NCBI RefSeq assembly: GCF_009914755.1 | Contig: NC_060927.1 | Length of the DNA: 64,000 nt | Source: the human T2T-CHM13v2.0 reference genome, Homo sapiens | Reading direction: 5' to 3' (one strand) | In this document: positions 4,043-18,252 of the stretch, piece after piece | How positions within the stretch are numbered: position 1 is the stretch's first letter | Layout: every line of letters begins with the position of its first letter | Program-made: the position numbers and the translations under genes | Notes under the pieces: model-generated | The model's database searches: none | Told to the model about the DNA's origin: nothing | Seen by the model: the letters and a program-made list of their open reading frames with translations, nothing else

Positions 4043-6510
4043 ATCCTCTCCAGCATTTGTTACTGTTTGTCTTTTTTAATAATAGCCATCTTAACAGGGG
4101 TGAAATGATACTTTATTGTGGTTTTGATTTGCATTTCCCTCATGATGGGTGATGTTGAACATTTTTTTTTCAAATATTTTTTGGCCATTTGCATGTTGTC
4201 TTTTGAGAAATGTTTGTTCAGATTATTTGTCCATTTAAAAATCAGATTGTTTGGGTTTTTTGCTGTTAAAATGTTTGAGTTCCTTATGTATTTGGGATGT
4301 TAATCCCTTGTCAGAGAAGCAGTTTGCAAACATTTTCTCCTATTTTGTACATTTTCTTTTCACTCTCTGTTTGATTTGTTGTGCAGAAAATTTTTTAGTT
4401 AGATATAATCCCATTTGTTTACTTTTGTTTTTGTTGTCTGTGCTTTTAATGTTTCATTCATAAAATCTTTTCCCATACCAATGTCCTGAAATGTCTCCCC
4501 TATGTTTTTTTCTATTAATAATAGTTTTATCATTTAGGTCTTACATTTAAGTCTTTCATCTGTTTTGAGTTGATTTCTAAGGTAAGAGGTGGGGGTCTAG
4601 TTTGATTCTTCTGCATATGGATATCCGGTTTTCCCAGTACCATTTGTTGAAGAGACTGTTCTTTTCCCAGTGATTATTCTTGGCAGCTTTGTCAAAAATC
4701 AGTTGGCTGTGAGTATGTGGATTAATTTCTGGATTCTCTATTCTATTTCAGTAGTCTATATGTCTATTTTTATGCCAGTGTCATGCTGTTTTTGTTACTA
4801 CAGCTTGTAGCATAATTTGAGGTCTGGTAGTTTGGCACCTCCAGCTTTATTCTTTTTTCCTCAGAATTGCTTTGGCTGTTCAGGGTCTTTTCTAGTTCCA
4901 CAAGGAATTTTAGAATTTTTTTTTCTATTTTTGTTAAGAATGTCATTGGTATTTTAATAAGAATTGCATTGAATCTGTAGGTTACTTTGGGTAGTATTGT
5001 CATTTGAACAATATTAATACTTCCAATCCATAAGCATGGGATGTTTTTTCATTCGTTTGTACCCTCTAATTTTTTTCATCATTGTTTTATAGCTTTCCCT
5101 ATAGAGGGCTATTATTCCCTTGGTTAAATTTATTCCTAGGCATTTATCTTATTTTTTATAGCTAAATGGGGTTGCCTTCTTGATTTCTTTTCAGCTAGCT
5201 CACCGTTCATGAATAGAAATGCTACTGATTTTTGTATATTAACTTTGTATCCTACAAGTTTACCAAATTCCTCTATTAGTTTTAACAGTTTTTTGGTAGA
5301 GTCTTTAGGTTTTCTGTATATATAAGATTATGTCATCTGCTAACAGGACAATTTGATGCCCTCCTTTCCAATTGCATGCCCTTTATTTCTTCCTCTTGCC
5401 TAATTACTCCACCTGGGACATCCAGTACTATGTTGAGTAAGAGTGGTAAGGCTGAGAATCCTTGTTTTTGTATCAGTTCTTAGAGGAAAAGATTTGAGCT
5501 TTTCCCCATTCAGTAAGATGTTAGCTATGGGTTTTTTTTATGTAGCCATTATTACATTAAAGTTATTTCCTTCTATACCCAATTTATTAAAAGTTTTTAT
5601 CATGCAGGGATGTTGAAGTTTTCATCAAAAGCTTTTTCTGCATCTATTTTGATGATCATGGTTTTTGTCCTTCATTCTGTTGAAGTGATATATGGCATTT
5701 ATTAATTTGCAAATGTTGAACCATTCTTGCATTTTTATATAAATCCCACTTCATTATGTTGTATTATCTTTTTGATGTGTTGCCAGATTTGGCTTGCTAA
5801 TAGTTATGTGGAAGATTTTTGTGTCTATGTTCATGAAGGATATTGGCCTTCACTCTTTTGTGTGCCCTTGTCTGGTTTGGTATCAGAGTTATGCTGGCCT
5901 TGTAGAATGAGTTAGAATGAGTTAGAAAACATTGCCTGTGCTTCAATTTTTTTGGAATGGTTTGAGGATAATTTGTATTCATTGTTTTTTAAATGTTCAC
6001 TAAAATTCAGTGGTGAAGCCATCCAGTCCTGGACTTTTCTTTGTTGGAAGATTTTTTCTTTTCTAACAGATTCAATCTCATTACTTACGATTGGGCTGTA
6101 GAAGTTTTCTGTTTCTTCTTGGTTCAATCTTGATAGGTTTTATTTGTCCAGGAATTTAGTCATTTCCTCTACATTTTCAAATTCATTAGTGTATAGTTGT
6201 TCACAATAGTCTCTAATGATCCTTTTTATTTATCTGGTATCTGCTTGTGACTTCTTTTTCATTTATGATTTTATTTATTTAGGTCTTCTCTTTTTTTCTA
6301 AGTTAGTCTAGCTAATGGTTTATTAATTTTGTTTAACTTTTCCAGGAACAAGCTTTTTGTTTCATTGATCTTCTCTATTATTTTTTAGTCCCAATTTTAT
6401 TTATTTCTGTTCTAATCTTTATTATTTATTTCCTCCTACGAGTTTTGGGTTTTGTTTGTTATTGCTTCTCTAGTCCCTTAACGTGCATTGTTAGGTGCAT
6501 TTATTTAAAA
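4043..6510 (-). mobile_element. Degenerate L1M ORF2 fragment
   Basis: Minus-strand ORF pieces match L1 ORF2 ([20 protein letters not shown]; NSFYKASITLIP; NQEETENFYSPI). Confidence 0.9.
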
Positions 6511-7125: not shown

Positions 7126-8772
7126 AATAAGAGTAAAACAATCCTGTAAGAGAATTTCATTGTTCTAATCAATTATTTAGTGTACAAGTGTTTTTTTTTT
7201 TTACATCAAGCCCAATCTCTAGAAAGACCATTATAATTTCCCTTTAATTACAGACAACTTGATCATTATATTTGATTGTATACAGCTTGTTTTGTTTTTT
7301 TTAATCCTCCTATTGTGACTGACACAGACCATTCATGACATGCTTGGACTTTCTGGTTTGTCCTGAACATCCCTCTTTCTTAAACAATCATTTTATTCAA
7401 GGACTAAATTTACCATACAAGATTCTTTCTCATATAAAATTATTTTTCCTTAAGCTTTCTTACCAAAAAAATACCTCTTTATAACTTTCTTTACATCTCT
7501 GTTATTTCCTGGTTCCTTTTGCCTTGTTTTATGTATAACAAAGTTATTTAAAAATAAGCTTTGAATTAGGCAAAAATTCTTCACCTTGTTAAAAAGGACA
7601 CACTTTTTTTGTTTTTAGAAAGTTTTTCTACAGTATGTTTTTATTGGAAAATACCCAAATAATGAAATATCTGTTATTTAACATCACATTAGATTCTAAA
7701 TTATGATATGTGTGTCTGCAAGTATTTATCCCATTACATTTACCTAATTATTTTAACCATTTTACCTAGATATTTTATGAAAACTGCACTAGTCATCATT
7801 TAAAGTTATGGAACCACCATTGCAAAATTATAGCTGAGACAGTGAAAAAGATCTGATCTAACTGACTCCATCTTGTTTCTAACCTCCAAGCTGTCCTTGT
7901 TCATTCCTGGGCACAGGCCAAACTAACTTTTGGAATAACTTAATTTATAGTTTAGCTTTGAAACAAAGATGATAACTGTCCTTTGCCAATACAAACCTTA
8001 CTGCCTGTGGCCAGACTGCCTAAAGCCACAAGATTAGAAGTTATGCTAATCTTACTGAATTCAAGATGTAGCTATTTTCATTAAACCAATATCAATGTCT
8101 TATTTATTTAAAATTACACAAGCAAAGATCATTCTATTTTGGACCAAGTTTACAGTTTTGTAACCCCTATCCCAAATTTTGACACCTTATAGTCAAATTT
8201 GGCAGGGATAAGTATAAAATTGCTTGATTGATAAATGTAAACAAAAGGGTATACTGGCAAATCTTAAGACATTTCTAATATTACTTTACCAATAATTTTA
8301 AAGCTAGCTTATTTATTAAAGATTTTACTTAAGTTACATGAACTTGAAAGAGCATTTAACTTGTCTTCTCTTTTTTCCTGATAAAGTATTTCATTCAAGT
8401 GCTTTTATTTTCTTATGCCAATTAATTAGAGCTCTTACATATATTTTCAGTAGTGAAACATTGTGTACACAACACATAAAACATAGATGTATTAGGTATG
8501 CCAGTAGAAGTACATCTTATAAATTCATAAAGACCCTTATTTTTCATACCTTAGACTTTCAAATTCTTGATAACCTATTTCACCACCCTAGACAGTTGTC
8601 AGCTAAATAGCCCTACATTTGCATATTAAAGGAAACAACTCAGGTGAAAATCAAATAGCAAAATTTATATCATGAGGTACAGACAGAAAAAGTCTGGTGT
8701 GCTAGAGGGAAATTAAAATGGGTTTAATTGCCAATTAAACATAAAATTATAGAAATTATGAAGGCCTTTTAA

Positions 8773-10737: not shown

Positions 10738-12599
10738 AGGGGCCAACCCCCTAGATACTCCCAGGAGGCCCCCAGTCACCCAGGGGTGCCTTTTGGCTGG
10801 GAGGAGCAAAATGCCCTTTCTCTTCAGAGCTGAGAAAACTCAGCGTCTTGTTTACCTGTGAATTGAACAATAGTTCAGTTCCTCAGGCAAATGTGCACCA
10901 AGAAGCCAAATCAAGATTAATGTTCAGAGAAAAAGCAATAGAGAAGACCCTTTAGGATGCATCTCTGGACTAGAATTAGGATTGTTAAACAACTTCCTAG
11001 GAGAAAATAAAAAAACAAAAAACAAAAAACAGCCATGACCACTTCCTGTAAACTGTGCTCAACCACCCCAACACTGTAGTTCTTGTCTGCCATTACACAT
11101 GCCTCTCACAGTACAAGGTAATCTCTGGTACCCCCAGAGCCAAAGAGGTCAGGAAAAAAGAGCTTTAGACCTAAGAAGAGTCTGCCCATGATTCTTGACA
11201 CTCCACAAAGAAAACAGAACACACCAAAAGGGGTGAGTGGTGGCTTTGTTCTGAATTCTTTAAAGGAGTTCAAGTCATTAGAAGCCTTCTCTAGATTTTT
11301 TTTGATACTGCAGATGGCAAAGGGGGAAGGAGGTATTGGGTGAAAGAAAAGTAAATTAAAGAACATTTGGTTTTCAAGACAGGAAGCAAACACGGAAACC
11401 AATTGCATCGTATTTTTTGTTTTGTTGTGTTGGGTTTTTTTTCCTCTTGCAGCTGTGAGGAATTTTAGCCAAATTAGAGAGGCTTTGTTACCCATAATCT
11501 GGAATTCTCACTCAGATTTAACCAAGTCAGGTAGAGTTGGACAAATCTGATGAGGGGAAGACCAGAACAGACAACAACCAAAAACTCAACAATATGATCA
11601 CTGAGCACTCTAATGGTAAGGAGAAATTAAGACCGGGTGCTTTTTAAGCTTAGCCAAGTTTAAGTTTAAGTTTTAAGTTTTTAAGTTTAGCCAAGACAAA
11701 ACCCCAATTCAGCTATTTACCTAGGAACGGGTCTCAGGCTGAAGACTGCTTTACCATCCTACAAGCAGGAAAAAACTCAAACTTGTCTTTCTTGTTAGGA
11801 GTAAGCTCAAACTCTGTTAAAGGAGTTACCTGCCTTCCATCATCATGGAAGCAGGAAATCTTGCCTTCCTTGTTGGAAGCAAGTAAAACTCCAAAAATGG
11901 GAGTTGCACAGCAAAATAAACTTTAGATTTCGACCAAATTTTGGGAGATTAGGGATTCTCTGGAGGGGGTGTTCCCAGACCTCAGCAAATTGTCCTATTG
12001 GTTTGAGCCATAAAATTAGCTCATGCTGGTACCAAGCACTGATCAAAGATTTGTCAAAGATCTGTTGGATATAAAATGCTCCAGGAATAAATGCTTGGTG
12101 CAGCAAAGTAAAACCAGCACCCAGGCAAAATTTAGTTCTCTTGGCAAGGCAATTTACTTTTGCAAAAGGGTGCCACTCGCGTCAATCAAGATCGCAAGTG
12201 CACAGAGAACAAAGGAGACGAGAGGGTTTTTATCCTTAATGCAGTCCCTATCTCTGTGTCACTCCCCCATGGGCTGAAGTTGGACTGCACAATCTGAGCT
12301 GACCCAATTGGCTACTTGTATATATTTTCCTAAATATAGAAGGGGAGGGGGACATGAGGTACAGAGGTGGAGCGGGTGAGACATGCAGTTTCAGGGGAAC
12401 AGTGGATACAGGTAACCAAAAGAACAGATGTGAGTTATTGATTAGAGCTGATGGGAAGTGGGTAGGCTGTTTACGGTAACTAGGGGCAAGGAAGAACAAG
12501 AGAGTTGAGTTTGAGAACAAAGGATAACGAAGTTAACAGGCTAAACCCTTTGAAGAGAAACTCAAAGATTTACTGTATCTTACAATTCCTCCCTTTTAA

Positions 12600-14530
12600 T
12601 TTTCTTACGGTTCTTTCTCTTCAAAGTTTTATAACATGTCTTGGCTTTGCTGTTTGATTTTATCTTCTAAAAGGAAAAGCTTACTTGAATAAGGTGGAGG
12701 AGAACTAAGGGAGGCTTTAGTAAGTGCTGTTTGTACAATTCTTTGTATTAGCCCATGGATGCATGGTATGACACAACACCTAACGAGAATGAGTATGCCT
12801 ATTATGACTGCAAGGGAAATAAGGATTGAGACCATGATTCCTTTCTATTTACTGAACTACTTTCCTAGCCATCCTGAAATGGGGTCATTGACTCCAGAAT
12901 TTTTAGCTAATTCATTGGATAAAGCAGTACGTCTCTCCAAGGCCTTTGTTATGCTCCCATCAGGGGCAGTGTTGTTTGGGATGAAGATACAACATTGGGT
13001 TTTAATCATCACACAAACTCCACCTTTTTTTGGCTAATAACATGTCTAGAGCTATTCTGTTTTCCTAAGCCATTTGGCTAGTAGGCCTTAATTGGTCAGC
13101 TATTCCTTTGACAGCATCCCTGGTGTAATTAATAAACTGCTGCTGATTATAATAGATGTAATTTATCCAAGCTACATGTTTATTAATAGTTACTCATGGA
13201 AATATGGATTCAAATCCTGCAGCTATTTGGTCTCGGGCTTTGAAACTGTCAGACACTCCTGGGGGACTCCAATGGCATCTGTGTAAACTTGAGAGTCAAA
13301 AGACCCATAAGGGGCTTCTCTTATTTTTTGGTGTTGTGGTTTTTCTTTTTCTGGTTGATGAAATGCCAGGGTGAAAGGGATAGCCAATTGGACAAGAGCA
13401 CAAGTGCTGCTCCAGTTACTTGGCAGAGTATTCAGTAAGGGTCCACTGCAATACCACCATACATATGCTTGAGGATGACTAAGGGGAGACTGATGGGTAA
13501 GCTCTTGGAAGGGCTTAAGCTCACTGCATCCTATTAAGCAAATTTTCCCCCTGTTGTGAGAGACATGAGGTGAAATCGATGTTGGGAAACGGAAGCTGGA
13601 TGGCCCTCAAGGGCTGACCTGCAGGGTGTTGGACTTCAGGATATAGCAGAGAGAGAGCTTGACACGATTTGTTGCCCCAGGCTGTGGAATCCTGGAAAAG
13701 AGCTACTATACAGCCTATGCCTGGTTGATTGAAGGACCATCCTAGTGGAAGGGGGACAATCTGTGCCTCTGGGCTGCTGTATGCACAAACATAACAATTG
13801 CTTTTGTTTAATGTGCAGAAGGAATATTGAATCCATTCCAACCAGGCATTTACATCTTGATATCCTGTCTCAATTGTTAGGGTTTGTCTTAAATCTTTTA
13901 CTTCTAAAATATTTACTTTGACATTGTTAGGTAGGGTAGAAGGTTCGGATGGAGAAGAAGAAGAGGGGTCAATAAAGCATGTTTTAAAGAAGCCTATATG
14001 GTCACATCCATTGGCCTCTGCTCCTAAGCCGTACAAGTGTTCTAAAGGGGTCGCAGGGTTGGTGGAGGTAGGGGCATTAATAGAGATCGTTACTGGGTTA
14101 CAATGGTCAAGTTGACAATTAGAGGGGGTGGTTCCTTTGGTAAGGCGGAGGTAAGATTTTAGGTCAGTACAGCCTTATGGGAAGGTCCTGCCGTGTGCTC
14201 TGGTAGTTAGGATGACATCTGCACATTGAGAACATATCTCTTAACTTAGAGTGCCTTGGTACCCCTGCCATGAGCAAGGTGGAGGGTCAATGGCTTCTCT
14301 GAAGGAGCAGAGGTATTTTTCTTAAGTAGAGACATATCTTTGCCAGTATTCATCCTTTTGACAAGGCATGCCAAGGCAAGCATCAAAAGTAATGATTTAG
14401 GGTGAGTCTGGCCTAGTTACATTGATAACAAGGTCAGCAATATAATGAGGAAAGAAGAAAGGGTAGTAGACTAGATAAAAGAGAGTTAAAGTTTTCTTAA
14501 CCTTAGTTTGAGGAGGTTTTTCTCTTGGAT
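12600..14530 (-). pseudogene. Retroviral env remnant (SU-TM)
   Basis: LEVKDLRQTLTIETGYQDVNAWLEWIQYS...CYVC in SU; TM immunosuppressive domain and CX6CC (QMA*ENRIALDMLLAKKGGVCVMIKTQCC); TM anchor; stops and frameshifts. Confidence 0.85.
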
Positions 14531-14599
14531 AATGACCCATGACTTCAGGGATGGTGGTGCTTTCTCGACTTGGGTATGATGGGTCCATCTTTTCTTGCT

Positions 14600-15566
14600 A
14601 TTTGGACTATGGTTTCAGTGGTTAGAAGCACTAGGCCGGCTCCTCAGGCTGGTGTCAATGTACTGGAAACTCTAGGGGTGATGCCTGTACTGGAAAATTG
14701 TGAGTTCTGAAGGAAGAGAAAGTGGAAGATAAAGCAAGTATTCAGGAATGTTGGATTGCTTTGAGAGGCAGTTTGGATTCTTACTAGGGTAATAGGAAGT
14801 CAGAAGACATTTGATTTTTGGCAACAAAGTCTCTAGACTTGTTTGGCTAAGGGTGTAAATTCCTATACAGGTATAAACTTTGACCGTGCTATACATGGCT
14901 TGGGGTCTTTAATGGATCCTCTGATGTAGGTGGGATAGGACTGCCTTTATAAAAGGTTTGAATAACATTTCTCTGAGTTCCCTTTAGCACCTACAGGAGA
15001 AATGGCAGCTGGTCCAGCTTATCTGATTTGCTAGGTTATTTTCTTGACTCTTGAAAGACAGGCTTTTTGGTGCCTGGGGACATGGACAATAGCTATTTTT
15101 TCTTTTCTGGTAACTGAAGGCTATTCAACACTTGGGTGATTAACTCCTCATGAACAAGGCTTTGACTTTTACTATTCATTCAGTCTGAATTTTTCTAAAT
15201 TTATGAGCCACTGTAAAGGCGTATTTAGAATTAGTATAGATGGTTCTCTCCTGATCTTGCAGATACTTTAAAGCTTGACTAAGTGCAGACAGCTTATAAA
15301 TTTGGATAGACTACTTATTAAAACACTTTGATTTTATCTCTCTAGGAACTTTTATTAATCACTGAACACTTGTTGTGTTCTTTTTCCCTTAATCACTTTT
15401 GAGGGGGGTTTCTTTTAAGTTCTACTGGATGTTTGTATGGTAATCAGTTAAATCTAAACATGTGTGCTTTTAGATTTGGCTCTCTCGTTAAGAAACTTGC
15501 TAGGTTAAGCGAATTATCAGTAGTTAATGTTAAACCATCCTTTTTAACAGAATAGCCTCATACTTA
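14600..15566 (-). pseudogene. Retroviral pol remnant (tether/RNase H and integrase pieces only)
   Basis: KYEAILL..LTLTTDNSLN..HTCLDL (tether); IAIVHVP (RNase H); IN fragments LHQRIH..PQAM..GIYTL and PLEFPVH. Confidence 0.7.
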
Positions 15567-15569
15567 TAC

Positions 15570-15733
15570 ACATATAATTCTTTTCTGGTGGCACATTTTA
15601 ATATAAAACATAAATATTAATATATAATATATATAAAATAAAACAATATATAATATAAATACATAATATACAACTTAATATAAAACTTAATATATATAAT
15701 ATATAAAATATAAAACTTAATATATAATAGAAA
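15570..15733. repeat. AT-rich low-complexity tract with repeated aacttaatat units
   Basis: Nearly pure A/T; lies between two copies of ttctttt(t)ctggtgg (15578 and 15751). Confidence 0.85.
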
Positions 15734-16135
15734 ACTTTAAAGGATCAAAGTTCTTTTCTGGTGGATATTTTCACTTTTAACACTGACTTGACCACAATAA
15801 ATGCTAGTGGATATATCAGCTGAAAGATTATCTACTCAGGAGACTTAGCTGCAGAGATGCCTAGCTGCTTGGAGCCATGGCTGAGGCCTGGTATTACTTG
15901 GCCCTGGCAAAAGTAAGGCAGATGTCCCATAATGTAGTCTGCTCAGGGCATAGGCTGGGACCTGGACTGTGTGTCTTGCAGAGCTGCCGTCAATGTGGTG
16001 CCGGGACCTTGGACCAGCCAGGGGGCAGGAGCATGGGCTTTGCCTGCCGCTGGGGCGTACTATGGGCTGGATGATGCCGACAACATGTTGCAGCTGATCC
16101 TTGATGTTGCTAGCCCGGCAAAAGCCACCGGCGAA
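15734..16135 (-). pseudogene. RFK: Intronless riboflavin kinase (RFK) mRNA-derived fragment: GC-rich 5'UTR-like leader, N-terminal CDS and a short C-terminal piece
   Basis: From 15951 the minus strand reads MP*ADYIMGHLPYFCQGQVIPGLSHGSKQLGISAAKSPE / VDNLSADISTSIYCGQVSVKSENIH / PEKNFDPLK. Recalled human RFK: MPRADCIMRHLPYFCRGQVVRGFGRGSKQLGIPTANFPEQVVDNLPADISTGIYYGWASVGSGDVH...PEKNFDSLE. The 5' boundary is approximate. Confidence 0.9.
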
Positions 16136-16139
16136 TTAC

Positions 16140-16676
16140 GAGCTTGGAGTTCTTTTGGGGAGGGGGACTTAGGCTGGGCCTGAGGGAAGGGTTGGGTGTA
16201 TTAGGTGGGGGACCAGGGGTATTAGGTGGAGGATGGCCTAGGGGATCCCGTGTGCTGTTCTCGTTTGCCAGGATTCCCTGAGCCCCTTCCCTCACTGGTT
16301 CTACAGTAGGGGCAGGGGCATAAGGGAAAAGGGAGGACAGGTCTTTGCTTCCAACAAAGAGCATAGACCAGTTTTTCTTGAGAAACTGGGCTTTTATTAT
16401 TTACATGTTGAATTAAAAGTTGACATAGTATATCCTCAGTCGACCCAAACTTTGGCCAGAAGATTGAGGGATTGAGGTTAGGTCTTTGAGTCCAAATAGA
16501 ACAGCAATATTTTATCATTTGTTGCTTTTATTTATGTTTAGTTCTTTCATTATCTTCCCAGCCTTTTAGCATGAGACCTAGAGGGTTATCAGGTGGTATA
16601 TCTTTGAGACCTAAGGGACTATCAAGGGGATATCTTTGTTGCTAACTTCATCTTTTTTGCTTGTAATATTTCCCAT
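16140..16676 (-). pseudogene. Retroviral gag remnant (matrix and proline-rich region)
   Basis: MGN start at 16676; DIPPDNPLGLML; MIKYCC..IFWPKFGS..CQLL; PPPNTPGPPPNTP. Confidence 0.8.
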
Positions 16677-18252
16677 ACTGGGTCCTGGCTAGGCTCAATC
16701 CCTCTTATTAGGAATCTCTTGCCAATTTGGGGAGTTCCTTGTGGCTCAACCCCTCATATTAGCGATCTCTTGCCTATCCTTCAGTGGAAGCTTTGCTAAG
16801 GCTTAATTCGCTTATCTCCATCTGCTGGAGGTCCCTTGAACCCTTCTTTTGCTTCGTCTGCTCTGGCCACTTCCCTCTCGGGAATGTTTCAGGTCCCTCT
16901 TACCATTGATGGCGGGTCAGTATAAATCCCTGATGGGACCCCCAAAGGGCCGCCCTAAGCCATATGTGGTGACCACGGAATCGTAGATTGGACTCACTCA
17001 TTCCTCACAGCAGTAGTGCTTGTTACCATTCATGCACTTTCAACCTCCAGAATGCCCCGACCACCCCCTCTGACCACCAAAGAAGTACTTTGTCGCCCCT
17101 GTGACGTTTCGTACCTTGGTCTGTGCACAGAGTTTACCTGGTCGCCACGGTATTGCAAGCCTCTCCTCCCCACGTTGCTGAGAGTGTGGGTTTATTCGTC
17201 ACCAAGGGTGGGTCTCAATCTCACCTCCCTGAGGCCACCGCAGTGGGGCAGTGGGACACGTCTTGCCTGAGTAAGGAAGTTAACAGGCTAAACACTTTGA
17301 AGAGAACTCAGAAAGATTTATTGTATCTTACAGATCAGGGTACCTCTGCTCAGATTCCCTTCATGGATACCAAAATGTGAACCCCGAATATCTGAGACAG
17401 GTCTCAGTTAATTTACAAGGTTTGTTTTGCCAAGGTTGAGGACATATGCCTGTGACACAGCCTCAGGAGGTCCTAACAACATGTGCCCAAGGTGCTCAGA
17501 GCACGGCTTGGTTTTATACGCTCGGAGACATAAGACATCAGTCAACATACGCAAGATGAACATTGGTTCTGTCTGGAAAGGTGGGACAACTCAAAGCAAA
17601 AGCAGGACAGCTCAAAGCAGGGAGGGGGCTTCTAGGTCATAGGTTGATAAGAGACAAATGGTTGTATTCTTTTGAGTTTTCGATTAGCCTCTCCAAATGA
17701 GGCAATCAGATATGCACTTATCTCAGTGAGCAGAGGGATGACTTTGAGTAGAAGGGGAGGTAGGCTTTGCCCTAAGTAGTTCCTAACTTGACTCTTCCCA
17801 TTAGCTAAGTGATTTTGGGTCCTCAAGATTTGTTTTCCTTTCACAAAAATGTGTACTCATAAAAATTTAGCTAGACATTTCATAGATTTCTGTGTTCTAT
17901 TTTTCTCTTTGCAGAAAGCAAAAGTGGACTACTTTGATTAAAAGTGGTGATTAATAACAATAAAAATATACTTGGTACAATAATCATGGAAAAAATGAAT
18001 ATATATACACATAATAATGAATATAAATCTTTACTAAGGAAACAGTTCATTAAAGTGGTAATTTCAATATAGTAGATATACAATCTTATTTAATATAAGA
18101 TTAGTTATCTGCATACTAAATAAAATATAAAATTAAAAATTAAAAACCTTTATTGTGTATTTACATAATCATGTATTTTAAAATAATACTTATAAAGGTA
18201 TATAAAGACTAAATTTTTAGAAGTCTAAATAAAAAAGTTTATTTAAAGTATT

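What the first reader, a model, noticed from the sequence alone, without database searches (positions are those of the whole stretch)
15734..16135. Riboflavin kinase (RFK) mRNA fragment inside a HERV-I-like provirus, in place of capsid/PR/RT: candidate retroviral transduction of a host gene
Seen in sequence: on the proviral sense (-) strand, gag matrix/proline-rich sequence gives way at ~16135 to a GC-rich leader. This is followed by MP*ADYIMGHLPYFCQGQVIPGLSHGSKQLGISAAKSPE/VDNLSADISTSIYCGQVSVKSENIH/PEKNFDPLK, and pol resumes only at the tether domain (~15566). The insert is co-oriented with the virus, keeps the mRNA 5' end but no 3'UTR, and has no poly(A) on its sense strand and no TSD. The ORF track misses it because of a stop and frameshifts. 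Established knowledge: it matches the recalled human RFK N-terminus and PEKNFD motif. L1-made retrocopies usually keep the 3' end, poly(A) and TSD, whereas gag-host-pol replacement is the layout of transducing retroviruses. Inference: RFK mRNA was recombined into a HERV-I genome, possibly forming a non-autonomous lineage, in which case other RFK pseudogenes would share this context. The RFK ATG (15951) is nominally in frame with the matrix ORF at 16518, but stops intervene, so a Gag-RFK fusion is not established. I cannot tell whether this copy is already annotated.
Basis: partly seen in the sequence, partly recalled or inferred. Interest (0 to 1): 0.88.

Follow-up and report, generated by a model that had tools for sequence, protein, structure and literature searches.

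The report
Retrovirus fossil carrying riboflavin kinase fragment
An ancient retrovirus picked up a spliced copy of the human riboflavin kinase (RFK) message in place of its own core genes and then spread as a crippled, helper-dependent lineage, leaving at least nine copies in the human genome, a rarely documented event for human endogenous retroviruses.

Summary
On the minus strand, window 16143-15559 is intronless RFK cDNA. It holds the 5'UTR and exon 1, part of exon 2, the tail of exon 3, a remnant of exon 4 and 44 nt of 3'UTR. It sits between gag (MA/p12) and the C-terminal end of RT in a gamma-type provirus (12063-17332, target-site duplication GATC). Eight other proviruses in this genome carry the same gag|RFK and RFK|pol junctions at unrelated sites. 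Six of the nine have perfect, mutually different 4-bp duplications. One copy (chr3:122.76 Mb) keeps exons 2 and 3 whole and has the most diverged LTRs. Seven share a later 136-nt deletion, and one has a deletion of its own. RFK-less relatives hold about 3.05 kb where these hold about 0.45-0.6 kb. Both junctions show microhomology (2 nt and 7-9 nt), and the insert starts about 10 nt inside the mRNA 5' end as marked by two ordinary RFK retrocopies. This favours reverse-transcriptase template switching onto co-packaged RFK mRNA, followed by mobilisation in trans. Three corrections apply: some 3'UTR is kept, gag is not in phase with the RFK ATG, and the primer-binding site is proline-type. No publication was found in the searches made.

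The parts
17333..17336 (.). Target-site duplication GATC, upstream copy in proviral sense
   Evidence: GATC lies directly outside the 5' LTR start and again outside the 3' LTR end.
17271..17332 (-). 5' LTR remnant. Only the first ~62 nt remain; about 517 nt are deleted (the rest of the LTR and the primer-binding site).
   Evidence: In L013 the equivalent of window 17272 is followed by 517 nt before the equivalent of window 17276.
16144..17270 (-). Leader and 5' part of gag: ATG at 16676-16674 (MGNITS...), then MA and the proline-rich p12 region
   Evidence: RFK-less relatives align up to 16144.
15849..16143 (-). RFK exon 1: about 200 nt of 5'UTR, then the ATG at 15951-15949 and the first 32 codons. 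Stop at codon 3; private 1-nt deletion in the leader.
15757..15848 (-). RFK exon 2, first ~99 nt, joined exactly to exon 1. Private 7-nt deletion.
15738..15756 (-). Tail of RFK exon 3 (PEKNFDSL), joined to exon 2 across a 136-nt deletion with CCA microhomology. Shared by 7 of 9 copies.
15603..15737 (-). Remnant of the first ~10 nt of RFK exon 4, swamped by an AT-rich expansion private to this copy
   Evidence: Sister copies read ...TTTAAAGTCACTTAT directly followed by the 3'UTR piece.
15559..15602 (-). RFK 3'UTR piece (gene positions 7759-7802, about 230 nt after the stop codon). Its last 7-9 nt overlap pol as microhomology.
14200..15565 (-). pol remnant: C-terminal end of RT (KYEAILL), then RNase H and integrase, heavily decayed. 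The lower boundary is approximate.
   Evidence: Weak Pfam RNase_H match, E 0.0038, below the curated cut-off.
12630..14174 (-). env remnant. The TM part carries a C-x6-CC motif and a membrane anchor. The upper boundary is approximate.
   Evidence: and the read-through translation. No Pfam match.
12586..12597 (-). Polypurine tract AAAAGGGAGGAA
   Evidence: It is conserved in 6 of the 7 copies shown; in the seventh (L015) an Alu lies there.
12063..12584 (-). 3' LTR, 522 nt, TG...CA
12059..12062 (.). Target-site duplication GATC, downstream copy

Best explanation
This is one member of a fossil lineage of replication-defective, host-gene-transducing, gammaretrovirus-like endogenous retroviruses.

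Shown: a fully spliced RFK transcript replaced about 2.9 kb of the virus (from the C-terminal part of p12 through CA, NC and PR to nearly the end of RT). The chimera kept its LTRs, a proline-type primer-binding site, the leader and 5' gag, the polypurine tract, RNase H/IN and env. It integrated at least nine separate times in the primate germ line.

Inferred: capture was most likely by two template switches of reverse transcriptase (about 65% within this explanation). During minus-strand synthesis the enzyme left the viral pol RNA for a co-packaged RFK mRNA at a 7-9 nt homology in the 3'UTR. It then skipped from the 3'UTR to the start of exon 4, copied exons 3, 2 and 1 almost to the cap, and returned to viral gag RNA. 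Because the chimera lacks capsid, protease and polymerase, it had to be packaged and reverse-transcribed by proteins of a helper virus.

The RFK piece looks like a passenger. The gag frame enters it out of phase with the RFK ATG. The most prolific form (7 of 9 copies) carries a frame-breaking 136-nt deletion inside RFK.
For: - Same junctions in 9 of 9 loci: RFK starts at gene position 543/544; the exon-4-start-to-3'UTR jump is visible in 8 of 9 (L020's own deletion removes that stretch); RFK 7802 is joined to pol.
- Introns are removed exactly: exon 1|2 in all copies; exons 2|3 and 3|4 in L018.
- Flanks are unrelated. LTRs are paired in 7 of 9; the window copy keeps a 62-nt 5' remnant, and no 3' LTR was seen for L020 in the 10 kb fetched.
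- The 4-bp duplications are GATC, TCTC, ATTT, CATA, TGTC and ACAA in 6 of 9.
- In RFK-less relatives with the same LTR type, gag continues past the joint. Three of three measured have 3.03-3.07 kb between window-equivalents 16321 and 15558, against 763 nt here.
- Microhomology: CA at the 5' joint and AAGTATG(G/A)G at the 3' joint.
- Two ordinary RFK retrocopies begin at gene position about 534/535, so the proviral insert starts about 10 nt inside the mRNA end.
- Order of forms: L018 has whole exons 2 and 3 and the highest LTR-LTR distance (K2P 0.176). The seven copies with the 136-nt deletion have 0.096-0.155 (six measured) and form one clade in the leader-gag tree, support 89/100.
- No capsid, protease or polymerase sequence lies between the joints.
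Against: - No helper was identified. In the pol query every RFK-less hit is about 70% identical, against 78-89% among the seven deleted copies. Only 40 of 447 candidates were scored, so a closer helper could have been missed.
- The mRNA 5' end is inferred from two retrocopies only, not from transcript data.
- The 5' microhomology is only 2 nt.
- A provirus reading through into RFK, or into an RFK retrocopy, cannot be excluded.
- No other primate genome could be searched, so ages rest on LTR divergence and an assumed rate.
- Repeat libraries (Repbase, Dfam) could not be consulted.
Confidence: 0.87

Rival explanations
1. Classical read-through capture. A provirus integrated upstream of RFK (or of an intronless RFK retrocopy). 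A deletion or read-through produced a gag-RFK hybrid RNA that was spliced. Only the 3' joint arose by recombination with a helper genome during reverse transcription.
For: This is the textbook route for oncogene capture (recalled). The 3' joint with 7-9 nt microhomology fits it as well. Conventional intronless RFK retrocopies exist that could have served as source.
Against: The insert begins within about 10 nt of the mRNA 5' end defined by two independent retrocopies. For a DNA deletion joint that would be a coincidence. No promoter or intron sequence is present.
Confidence: 0.22
2. The RFK piece was not a passenger. Either its product (a truncated flavokinase, or in the oldest form an RFK-Pol fusion) or its CpG-island leader acting as a regulatory or anti-silencing element gave the chimera an advantage that explains its spread.
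For: - In L018 the RFK frame runs in phase into pol.
- L018 retains profile positions 4-109 of 124 of the flavokinase domain.
- RefSeq lists enhancer features over 15544-16545 (hub annotation, not tested).
- No RFK-less provirus as close as the RFK-bearing ones are to each other was seen in pol.
Against: - The gag phase differs from the RFK ATG phase in the copies without leader indels: L013, L014, L018 and L020, and the window once its private 1-nt deletions are allowed for.
- 7 of 9 copies descend from a form with a frame-breaking 136-nt deletion that ends the RFK frame after about 70 codons.
- Being in phase with pol has a 1 in 3 chance expectation.
Confidence: 0.1
3. An ordinary L1-made RFK retrocopy landed in one provirus and was later trimmed. 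That provirus then multiplied.
For: RFK does have L1-type retrocopies containing exon 4 and the 3'UTR: about 8 loci.
Against: There is no poly(A), and the 3' end lies inside the 3'UTR at a microhomology with pol. No duplication brackets the insert. The insertion coincides exactly with loss of about 2.9 kb of viral genes. All this holds in 9 of 9 copies.
Confidence: 0.03
4. The nine copies arose by segmental duplication, or by gene conversion spreading the insert among pre-existing proviruses, not by new integrations.
For: A mosaic similarity pattern in gag among the copies shows that some recombination took place.
Against: Homology stops at the LTR ends. Each of 6 copies has its own perfect 4-bp duplication. 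The seven deleted copies group together in leader-gag and are the closest hits across pol, as expected for descent of whole elements.
Confidence: 0.02

Closest known systems
FAM8A1 transduced by a HERV-K-type endogenous retrovirus (Jamain et al. 2001, known here only through the passages and reference list of PMC5131818)
   Same: A spliced human mRNA is embedded in sense orientation inside a human endogenous retrovirus. There is microsimilarity at the fusion points, and more than one genomic copy (two FAM8A1 rows in the supplementary table).
   Different: That virus is class II (HERVK14 in that table); this one is gamma-type with a proline primer site. The gene differs. Here there are at least nine copies in three structural forms, and gag-pro-pol is replaced.
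LTR-mediated retroposition by template switching (Tan et al. 2016, PMC5131818; passages and one supplementary file seen)
   Same: The proposed mechanism is the same: reverse transcriptase switches to a co-packaged host mRNA and back, leaving microsimilarity and no L1 hallmarks.
   Different: Their human list has FAM8A1 (two copies, HERVK14) and ENSG00000176788 (MER4), and no RFK (file 1 could not be searched). Their screen kept uniquely mapped regions only, which may have removed a nine-copy family. The RFK chimera went on multiplying.
Acutely transforming, helper-dependent gammaretroviruses such as Abelson or Moloney sarcoma viruses (recalled, no call)
   Same: The layout is 5' gag, then host cDNA, then a truncated 3' viral part. 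Replication genes are lost, so a helper is needed.
   Different: There is no in-frame Gag-host fusion, the gene is not a known oncogene, and the chimera was fixed and amplified in the germ line over millions of years.
Non-autonomous ERV lineages mobilised in trans, such as mouse ETn by MusD (pairing named in PMC5131818 methods) or deleted HERV-H forms (recalled)
   Same: A coding-defective LTR element keeps its cis signals and outnumbers or outlasts its helper.
   Different: Here the deletion is filled with an identifiable host mRNA.
Ordinary L1-made RFK processed pseudogenes
   Same: They have the same parent gene and are also intronless.
   Different: They carry exon 4 and a continuous 3'UTR and start at the mRNA end. 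The proviral copies lack most of exon 4, have an internal 3'UTR end joined to pol, and share one junction pair.

Membership tests
Host-gene-transducing retrovirus | Intronless host sequence in sense orientation between the LTRs, absent from related viruses | tested here: met
   RFK-less relatives continue in gag past the joint.
Host-gene-transducing retrovirus | The insert replaces viral replication genes, making the genome helper-dependent | tested here: met
   About 3.05 kb in 3 of 3 measured relatives against 0.45-0.6 kb of RFK here. Helper dependence itself is inferred.
Host-gene-transducing retrovirus | The chimera was transmitted: several integrations with identical junctions | tested here: met
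   9 loci; 6 have perfect and different 4-bp duplications.
Host-gene-transducing retrovirus | The captured gene is expressed as a (Gag-)fusion or free protein with a function | tested here: not met
   The gag phase differs from the RFK phase. 7 of 9 copies carry a frame-breaking deletion. Expression is not testable here.
Gammaretrovirus-like (class I) ERV | MLV-type tRNA-Pro primer-binding site just after the 5' LTR | tested here: met
   The 8 copies that keep the site differ from TGGGGGCTCGTCCGGGAT at 1-3 positions. That 18-mer is given as the MLV PBS in PMC4587795. Its pairing with tRNA-Pro is recalled. The window copy has lost the site.
Gammaretrovirus-like (class I) ERV | 4-bp target-site duplication and a gamma-type TM with C-x6-CC | tested here: met
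   for the duplications. C-VMIKTQ-CC is seen in the read-through translation. That the motif is diagnostic is recalled.
HERV-I in the strict sense (isoleucine primer) | Primer-binding site complementary to tRNA-Ile | tested here: not met
   The site is proline-type in 8 of 8 copies that keep it. The Repbase/Dfam family name could not be obtained, so membership of the wider HERV-I/IP group stays open.
L1-made processed pseudogene | 3' poly(A), 7-20 bp duplications around the retrocopy, retained 3' end | tested here: not met
   None of these is present at the RFK|pol joint in 9 of 9 copies.
Flavokinase domain (Pfam PF01687) | Profile match above the curated cut-off | tested here: met
   L018 reading: 94.6 bits, E 6.7e-27. 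L014: 23.5 bits. L013: 17.6 bits, below the cut-off of 19.6. The 32-residue exon-1 reading of the window gave no match. All readings are broken by stops.

The most novel reading that the evidence does not exclude
The RFK-bearing chimera may have spread because of what it carried. One possibility is that the CpG-island leader of a housekeeping gene shielded the provirus from silencing or drove internal transcription. Another is that a truncated flavokinase (in the oldest form in phase with RNase H/integrase) changed riboflavin/FMN handling in infected cells. That second idea is notable because a riboflavin transporter is the receptor of at least one gammaretrovirus: PERV-A, seen only as a reference title. 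On this reading, this would be a germ-line retrovirus that used a captured metabolic gene fragment.
Probability: 0.08. Interest if true: 0.85.

Novelty: new member of a known kind. Interest (0 to 1): 0.66.

Why it matters
- **Rarity.** One genome-wide study calls FAM8A1 the single described case of host-gene capture by a human endogenous retrovirus and adds one more gene. A nine-copy RFK-carrying lineage with a traceable series of forms would be a third case, and a richer one.
- **Mobilisation in trans.** It shows a class I provirus without capsid, protease or polymerase being mobilised repeatedly in the primate germ line.
- **A known starting sequence.** Because the insert comes from a host gene, changes made while the virus replicated can be polarised without reconstructing the virus. 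Here that reveals a sense-strand G-to-A excess, strongest at GG, that two L1-made RFK retrocopies lack.
- **Annotation.** RFKP6 and its sisters should be labelled virus-borne rather than ordinary processed pseudogenes.

Tried and rejected
- **Gag-RFK in-frame fusion.** I first read the window's own p12 frame as leading into the RFK ATG frame. Comparison showed that the window has private 1-nt deletions. In L013, L014, L018 and L020 the gag phase is offset from the ATG. In WIN, L013, L014 and L018 that phase runs about 100 codons to a TAA at the start of exon 2; L020's is cut short by a stop of its own.
- **The 136-nt deletion.** I first took it as 135 nt and in frame. Translation shows that it shifts the frame.
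- **Junction coordinate.** I first placed the joint at RFK gene position 528; it is 543/544. One search used the earlier start, so 16 wrongly assigned columns are in its counts. One search repeats the key count from position 544.
- **Pfam scans.** Scans of 7 window ORFs and of 6 read-through frames gave only a sub-threshold RNase_H match.
- **Naming the family.** Vargiu et al. 2016 (PMC4724089) gave no occurrence of 'transduc' in the main text. The supplements held no coordinate hit and no PBS hit.
- **Direct repeat search.** It missed the LTR pair because the 5' LTR is mostly deleted.
- **Literature.** No relevant paper was found. Searches gave 0 papers. One search gave 7 papers holding both terms, 6 listed, none on this topic by title; one was opened. 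One search gave 1, a plant paper. One search was too broad to help.
- **L1-insertion and segmental-duplication readings** are rejected; see the rival explanations.

Full report
**Observation.** A genome search with window 16200-15734 hit the RFK gene on chr9 in two pieces about 1.5 kb apart there but adjacent here: exon 1 at E 1.5e-44 and exon 2 at E 2.2e-10. I located the parent exons on locus L021. In sense coordinates of that locus the ATG is at 743, exon 1 ends at 839, exon 2 is 2359-2510, exon 3 is 6272-6374, exon 4 starts at 7398 and the stop codon is at 7527-7529. The window carries RFK from 543/544 to the end of exon 1 (16143-15849). It is joined exactly to exon 2 up to about 2457 (15848-15757), then to the last 25 nt of exon 3 (to 15738). 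An AT-rich block follows (15737-15603), then 44 nt of 3'UTR (7759-7802; 15602-15559), then pol.

**The provirus in the window.**
- The 3' LTR is 12584-12063, preceded by a polypurine tract.
- The 5' LTR starts at 17332 but keeps only about 62 nt. About 517 nt, including the primer-binding site, are deleted.
- GATC flanks both ends.
- Downstream of RFK the reading KYEAILL matches the RT C-terminal stretch that an RFK-less relative reads as ...RWLTDSRILKYEAILLE.
- Pfam gives only a sub-threshold RNase_H match (E 0.0038) in the read-through translation. The TM region shows C-x6-CC.

**Sister copies.** (11 of 11 candidates scored) found eight other loci: chr3:48.30 Mb, chr7:23.79 Mb, chr19:12.01 Mb, chr12:126.62 Mb, chr6:86.18 Mb, chr3:122.76 Mb, chr11:5.87 Mb and chr4:143.92 Mb. 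I fetched 10 kb around each.
- Each aligns to the window provirus from LTR to LTR and not beyond.
- Seven have both LTRs. The chr4 copy shows no 3' LTR in the 10 kb held.
- All nine start RFK at the same base and join RFK 7802 to the same pol position. The jump from the first 10 nt of exon 4 to 3'UTR 7759 is seen in eight; the chr4 copy's own deletion removes that stretch.
- Target-site duplications are perfect and different in six: GATC, TCTC, ATTT, CATA, TGTC and ACAA. One matches 3 of 4 bases, one 2 of 4, and one could not be read.

These are separate integrase-made insertions of one chimera.

**Three forms and their order.**
- L018 (chr3:122.76 Mb) has exons 2 and 3 complete and spliced exactly to each other and to exon 4. 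Read with X at its one stop, it matches Flavokinase at E 6.7e-27.
- Seven copies, including the window, share a 136-nt deletion from exon 2 to exon 3 at a CCA microhomology. It shifts the frame.
- The chr4 copy has its own deletion from exon 2 into the 3'UTR.
- LTR-LTR distances (K2P) are 0.176 for L018 and 0.096-0.155 for six deleted copies. With a recalled rate of 2.2e-9 per site per year these give roughly 40 and 22-35 million years, and the figures shift with the rate chosen.
- In a leader-gag tree the seven deleted copies form one clade (89/100). L018 and the chr4 copy sit in an unresolved base together with RFK-less relatives.

**What was replaced, and how.** RFK-less proviruses with the same LTR type align with the window through the leader and gag up to 16144, then continue with other gag sequence. 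In three of three relatives where both anchors were found, 3.03-3.07 kb separate the equivalents of 16321 and 15558. In the window the distance is 763 nt.
- The 5' joint has a 2-nt overlap (CA).
- The 3' joint lies in AAGTATG(G/A)G, shared by the RFK 3'UTR and the pol of a relative.
- Two conventional RFK retrocopies, fetched as controls, begin at gene position about 534/535. The proviral insert therefore starts about 10 nt inside the mRNA end and holds no promoter DNA.

This pattern is an internal entry in the 3'UTR at a microhomology, jumps at short homologies, and an exit near the cap. It fits reverse-transcriptase template switching onto a co-packaged mRNA, as proposed for LTR-mediated retroposition (PMC5131818, passages), better than read-through capture. 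I put the split at about 65 to 25.

**Reading frames.** The proline-rich gag frame (PPPY in L018) crosses the joint out of phase with the RFK ATG. In 4 of 9 copies (WIN, L013, L014, L018) it stays open for about 100 codons, to a TAA at the start of exon 2. In the other five it is cut by private changes. The parent leader is open in two of three frames anyway, so this openness carries no weight. In L018 the RFK frame is in phase with pol, which has a 1 in 3 chance expectation. Testing ancestral ORFs would need a consensus, which I did not build.

**Mutation pattern.** Over exon 1, with the host gene as reference, non-CpG G-to-A against C-to-T is 11-18 against 4-6 in all nine proviral copies. 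In the two L1-made controls it is 2 against 4 and 7 against 4. GG sites are hit most: 4-9 of 17-24, against 1-2 of 15-18 for the mirror context. Twenty G-to-A sites are shared by all seven deleted copies against six C-to-T sites, so much of the change predates their spread. This fits APOBEC3G-like editing or a polymerase bias. The copies are related, so these counts are not independent.

**Family.** The eight copies that keep the site read TGGGGGCTCGTCCGGGAT with 1-3 changes. This is the MLV PBS (PMC4587795, passage), and it is proline-specific from recall. 'HERV-I-like' is thus unverified. A place in the wider HERV-I/IP group is possible but could not be tested without a repeat library.

**Other RFK pseudogenes.** About eight loci carry exon 4 with a continuous 3'UTR, and some also carry exons 2-3. 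These are a separate, conventional class. Only two were looked at, and only at their 5' ends.

**Literature.** Searches for RFK or riboflavin kinase together with HERV, endogenous retrovirus, transduction or LTR retrotransposon, and for RFKP1-6, found nothing relevant. Tan et al. 2016 list FAM8A1 and one other human gene, not RFK (one of their files could not be searched). Vargiu et al. 2016 do not use the word stem 'transduc' in the main text. Subscription journals and repeat databases were not searchable, so prior description cannot be excluded.

**Limits.** The genome search scores only the best candidates, so copy counts are lower bounds. No primate comparison was possible. The helper is unidentified.

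Noticed in passing
window 15603-15737; L013 3422-3743: The same spot (the exon-4 remnant) was hit twice independently. In the window copy it grew into a ~130-nt AT-rich repeat. In the chr3:48.30 Mb copy an Alu was inserted there, with a short duplication of ...CTTTAAAGTC.
   Followed up: partly
window 16321-16606 and 16144-16320: Mosaic similarity among the seven deleted copies. The window is 89-93% like L015 and L017 in the outer leader and the start of gag, but only 74-79% in this MA/p12 stretch. In the same stretch it is 82-94% like L013, L014, L016 and L019, and in 16321-16606 it is 81-86% like most RFK-less proviruses. This suggests recombination with another virus, perhaps a helper.
   Followed up: partly
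L037 (chr16:10.48 Mb), locus 1365-1501: An RFK-less relative has its own gag-to-pol deletion ending about 135 nt upstream of the RFK|pol joint. It is an independent non-autonomous variant of the same family.
   Followed up: partly
L018 and L020, gag MA region: The two oldest-looking RFK copies lack most of the 286-nt MA stretch present in the others and in the relatives.
   Followed up: no
RFK-derived part of all nine copies: Sites where the host gene has T and at least 7 of 9 copies have C number 10, against 1 for the mirror change A to G. This may be change in the host gene after the capture. It is unexplained.
   Followed up: no
window 15544-16545: RefSeq lists two 'enhancer' features that together cover the RFK-derived leader and the neighbouring gag (hub annotation). 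They could not be tested here.
   Followed up: no
window 17271-17276: This copy has lost most of its 5' LTR and the primer-binding site in one ~517-nt deletion, so it has no 5' promoter of its own.
   Followed up: yes
L021 (RFK gene), sense 7930-8060: An Alu lies about 400 nt downstream of the RFK stop codon, in what is taken here to be the 3'UTR. It produced spurious matches to Alus near the proviruses.
   Followed up: yes
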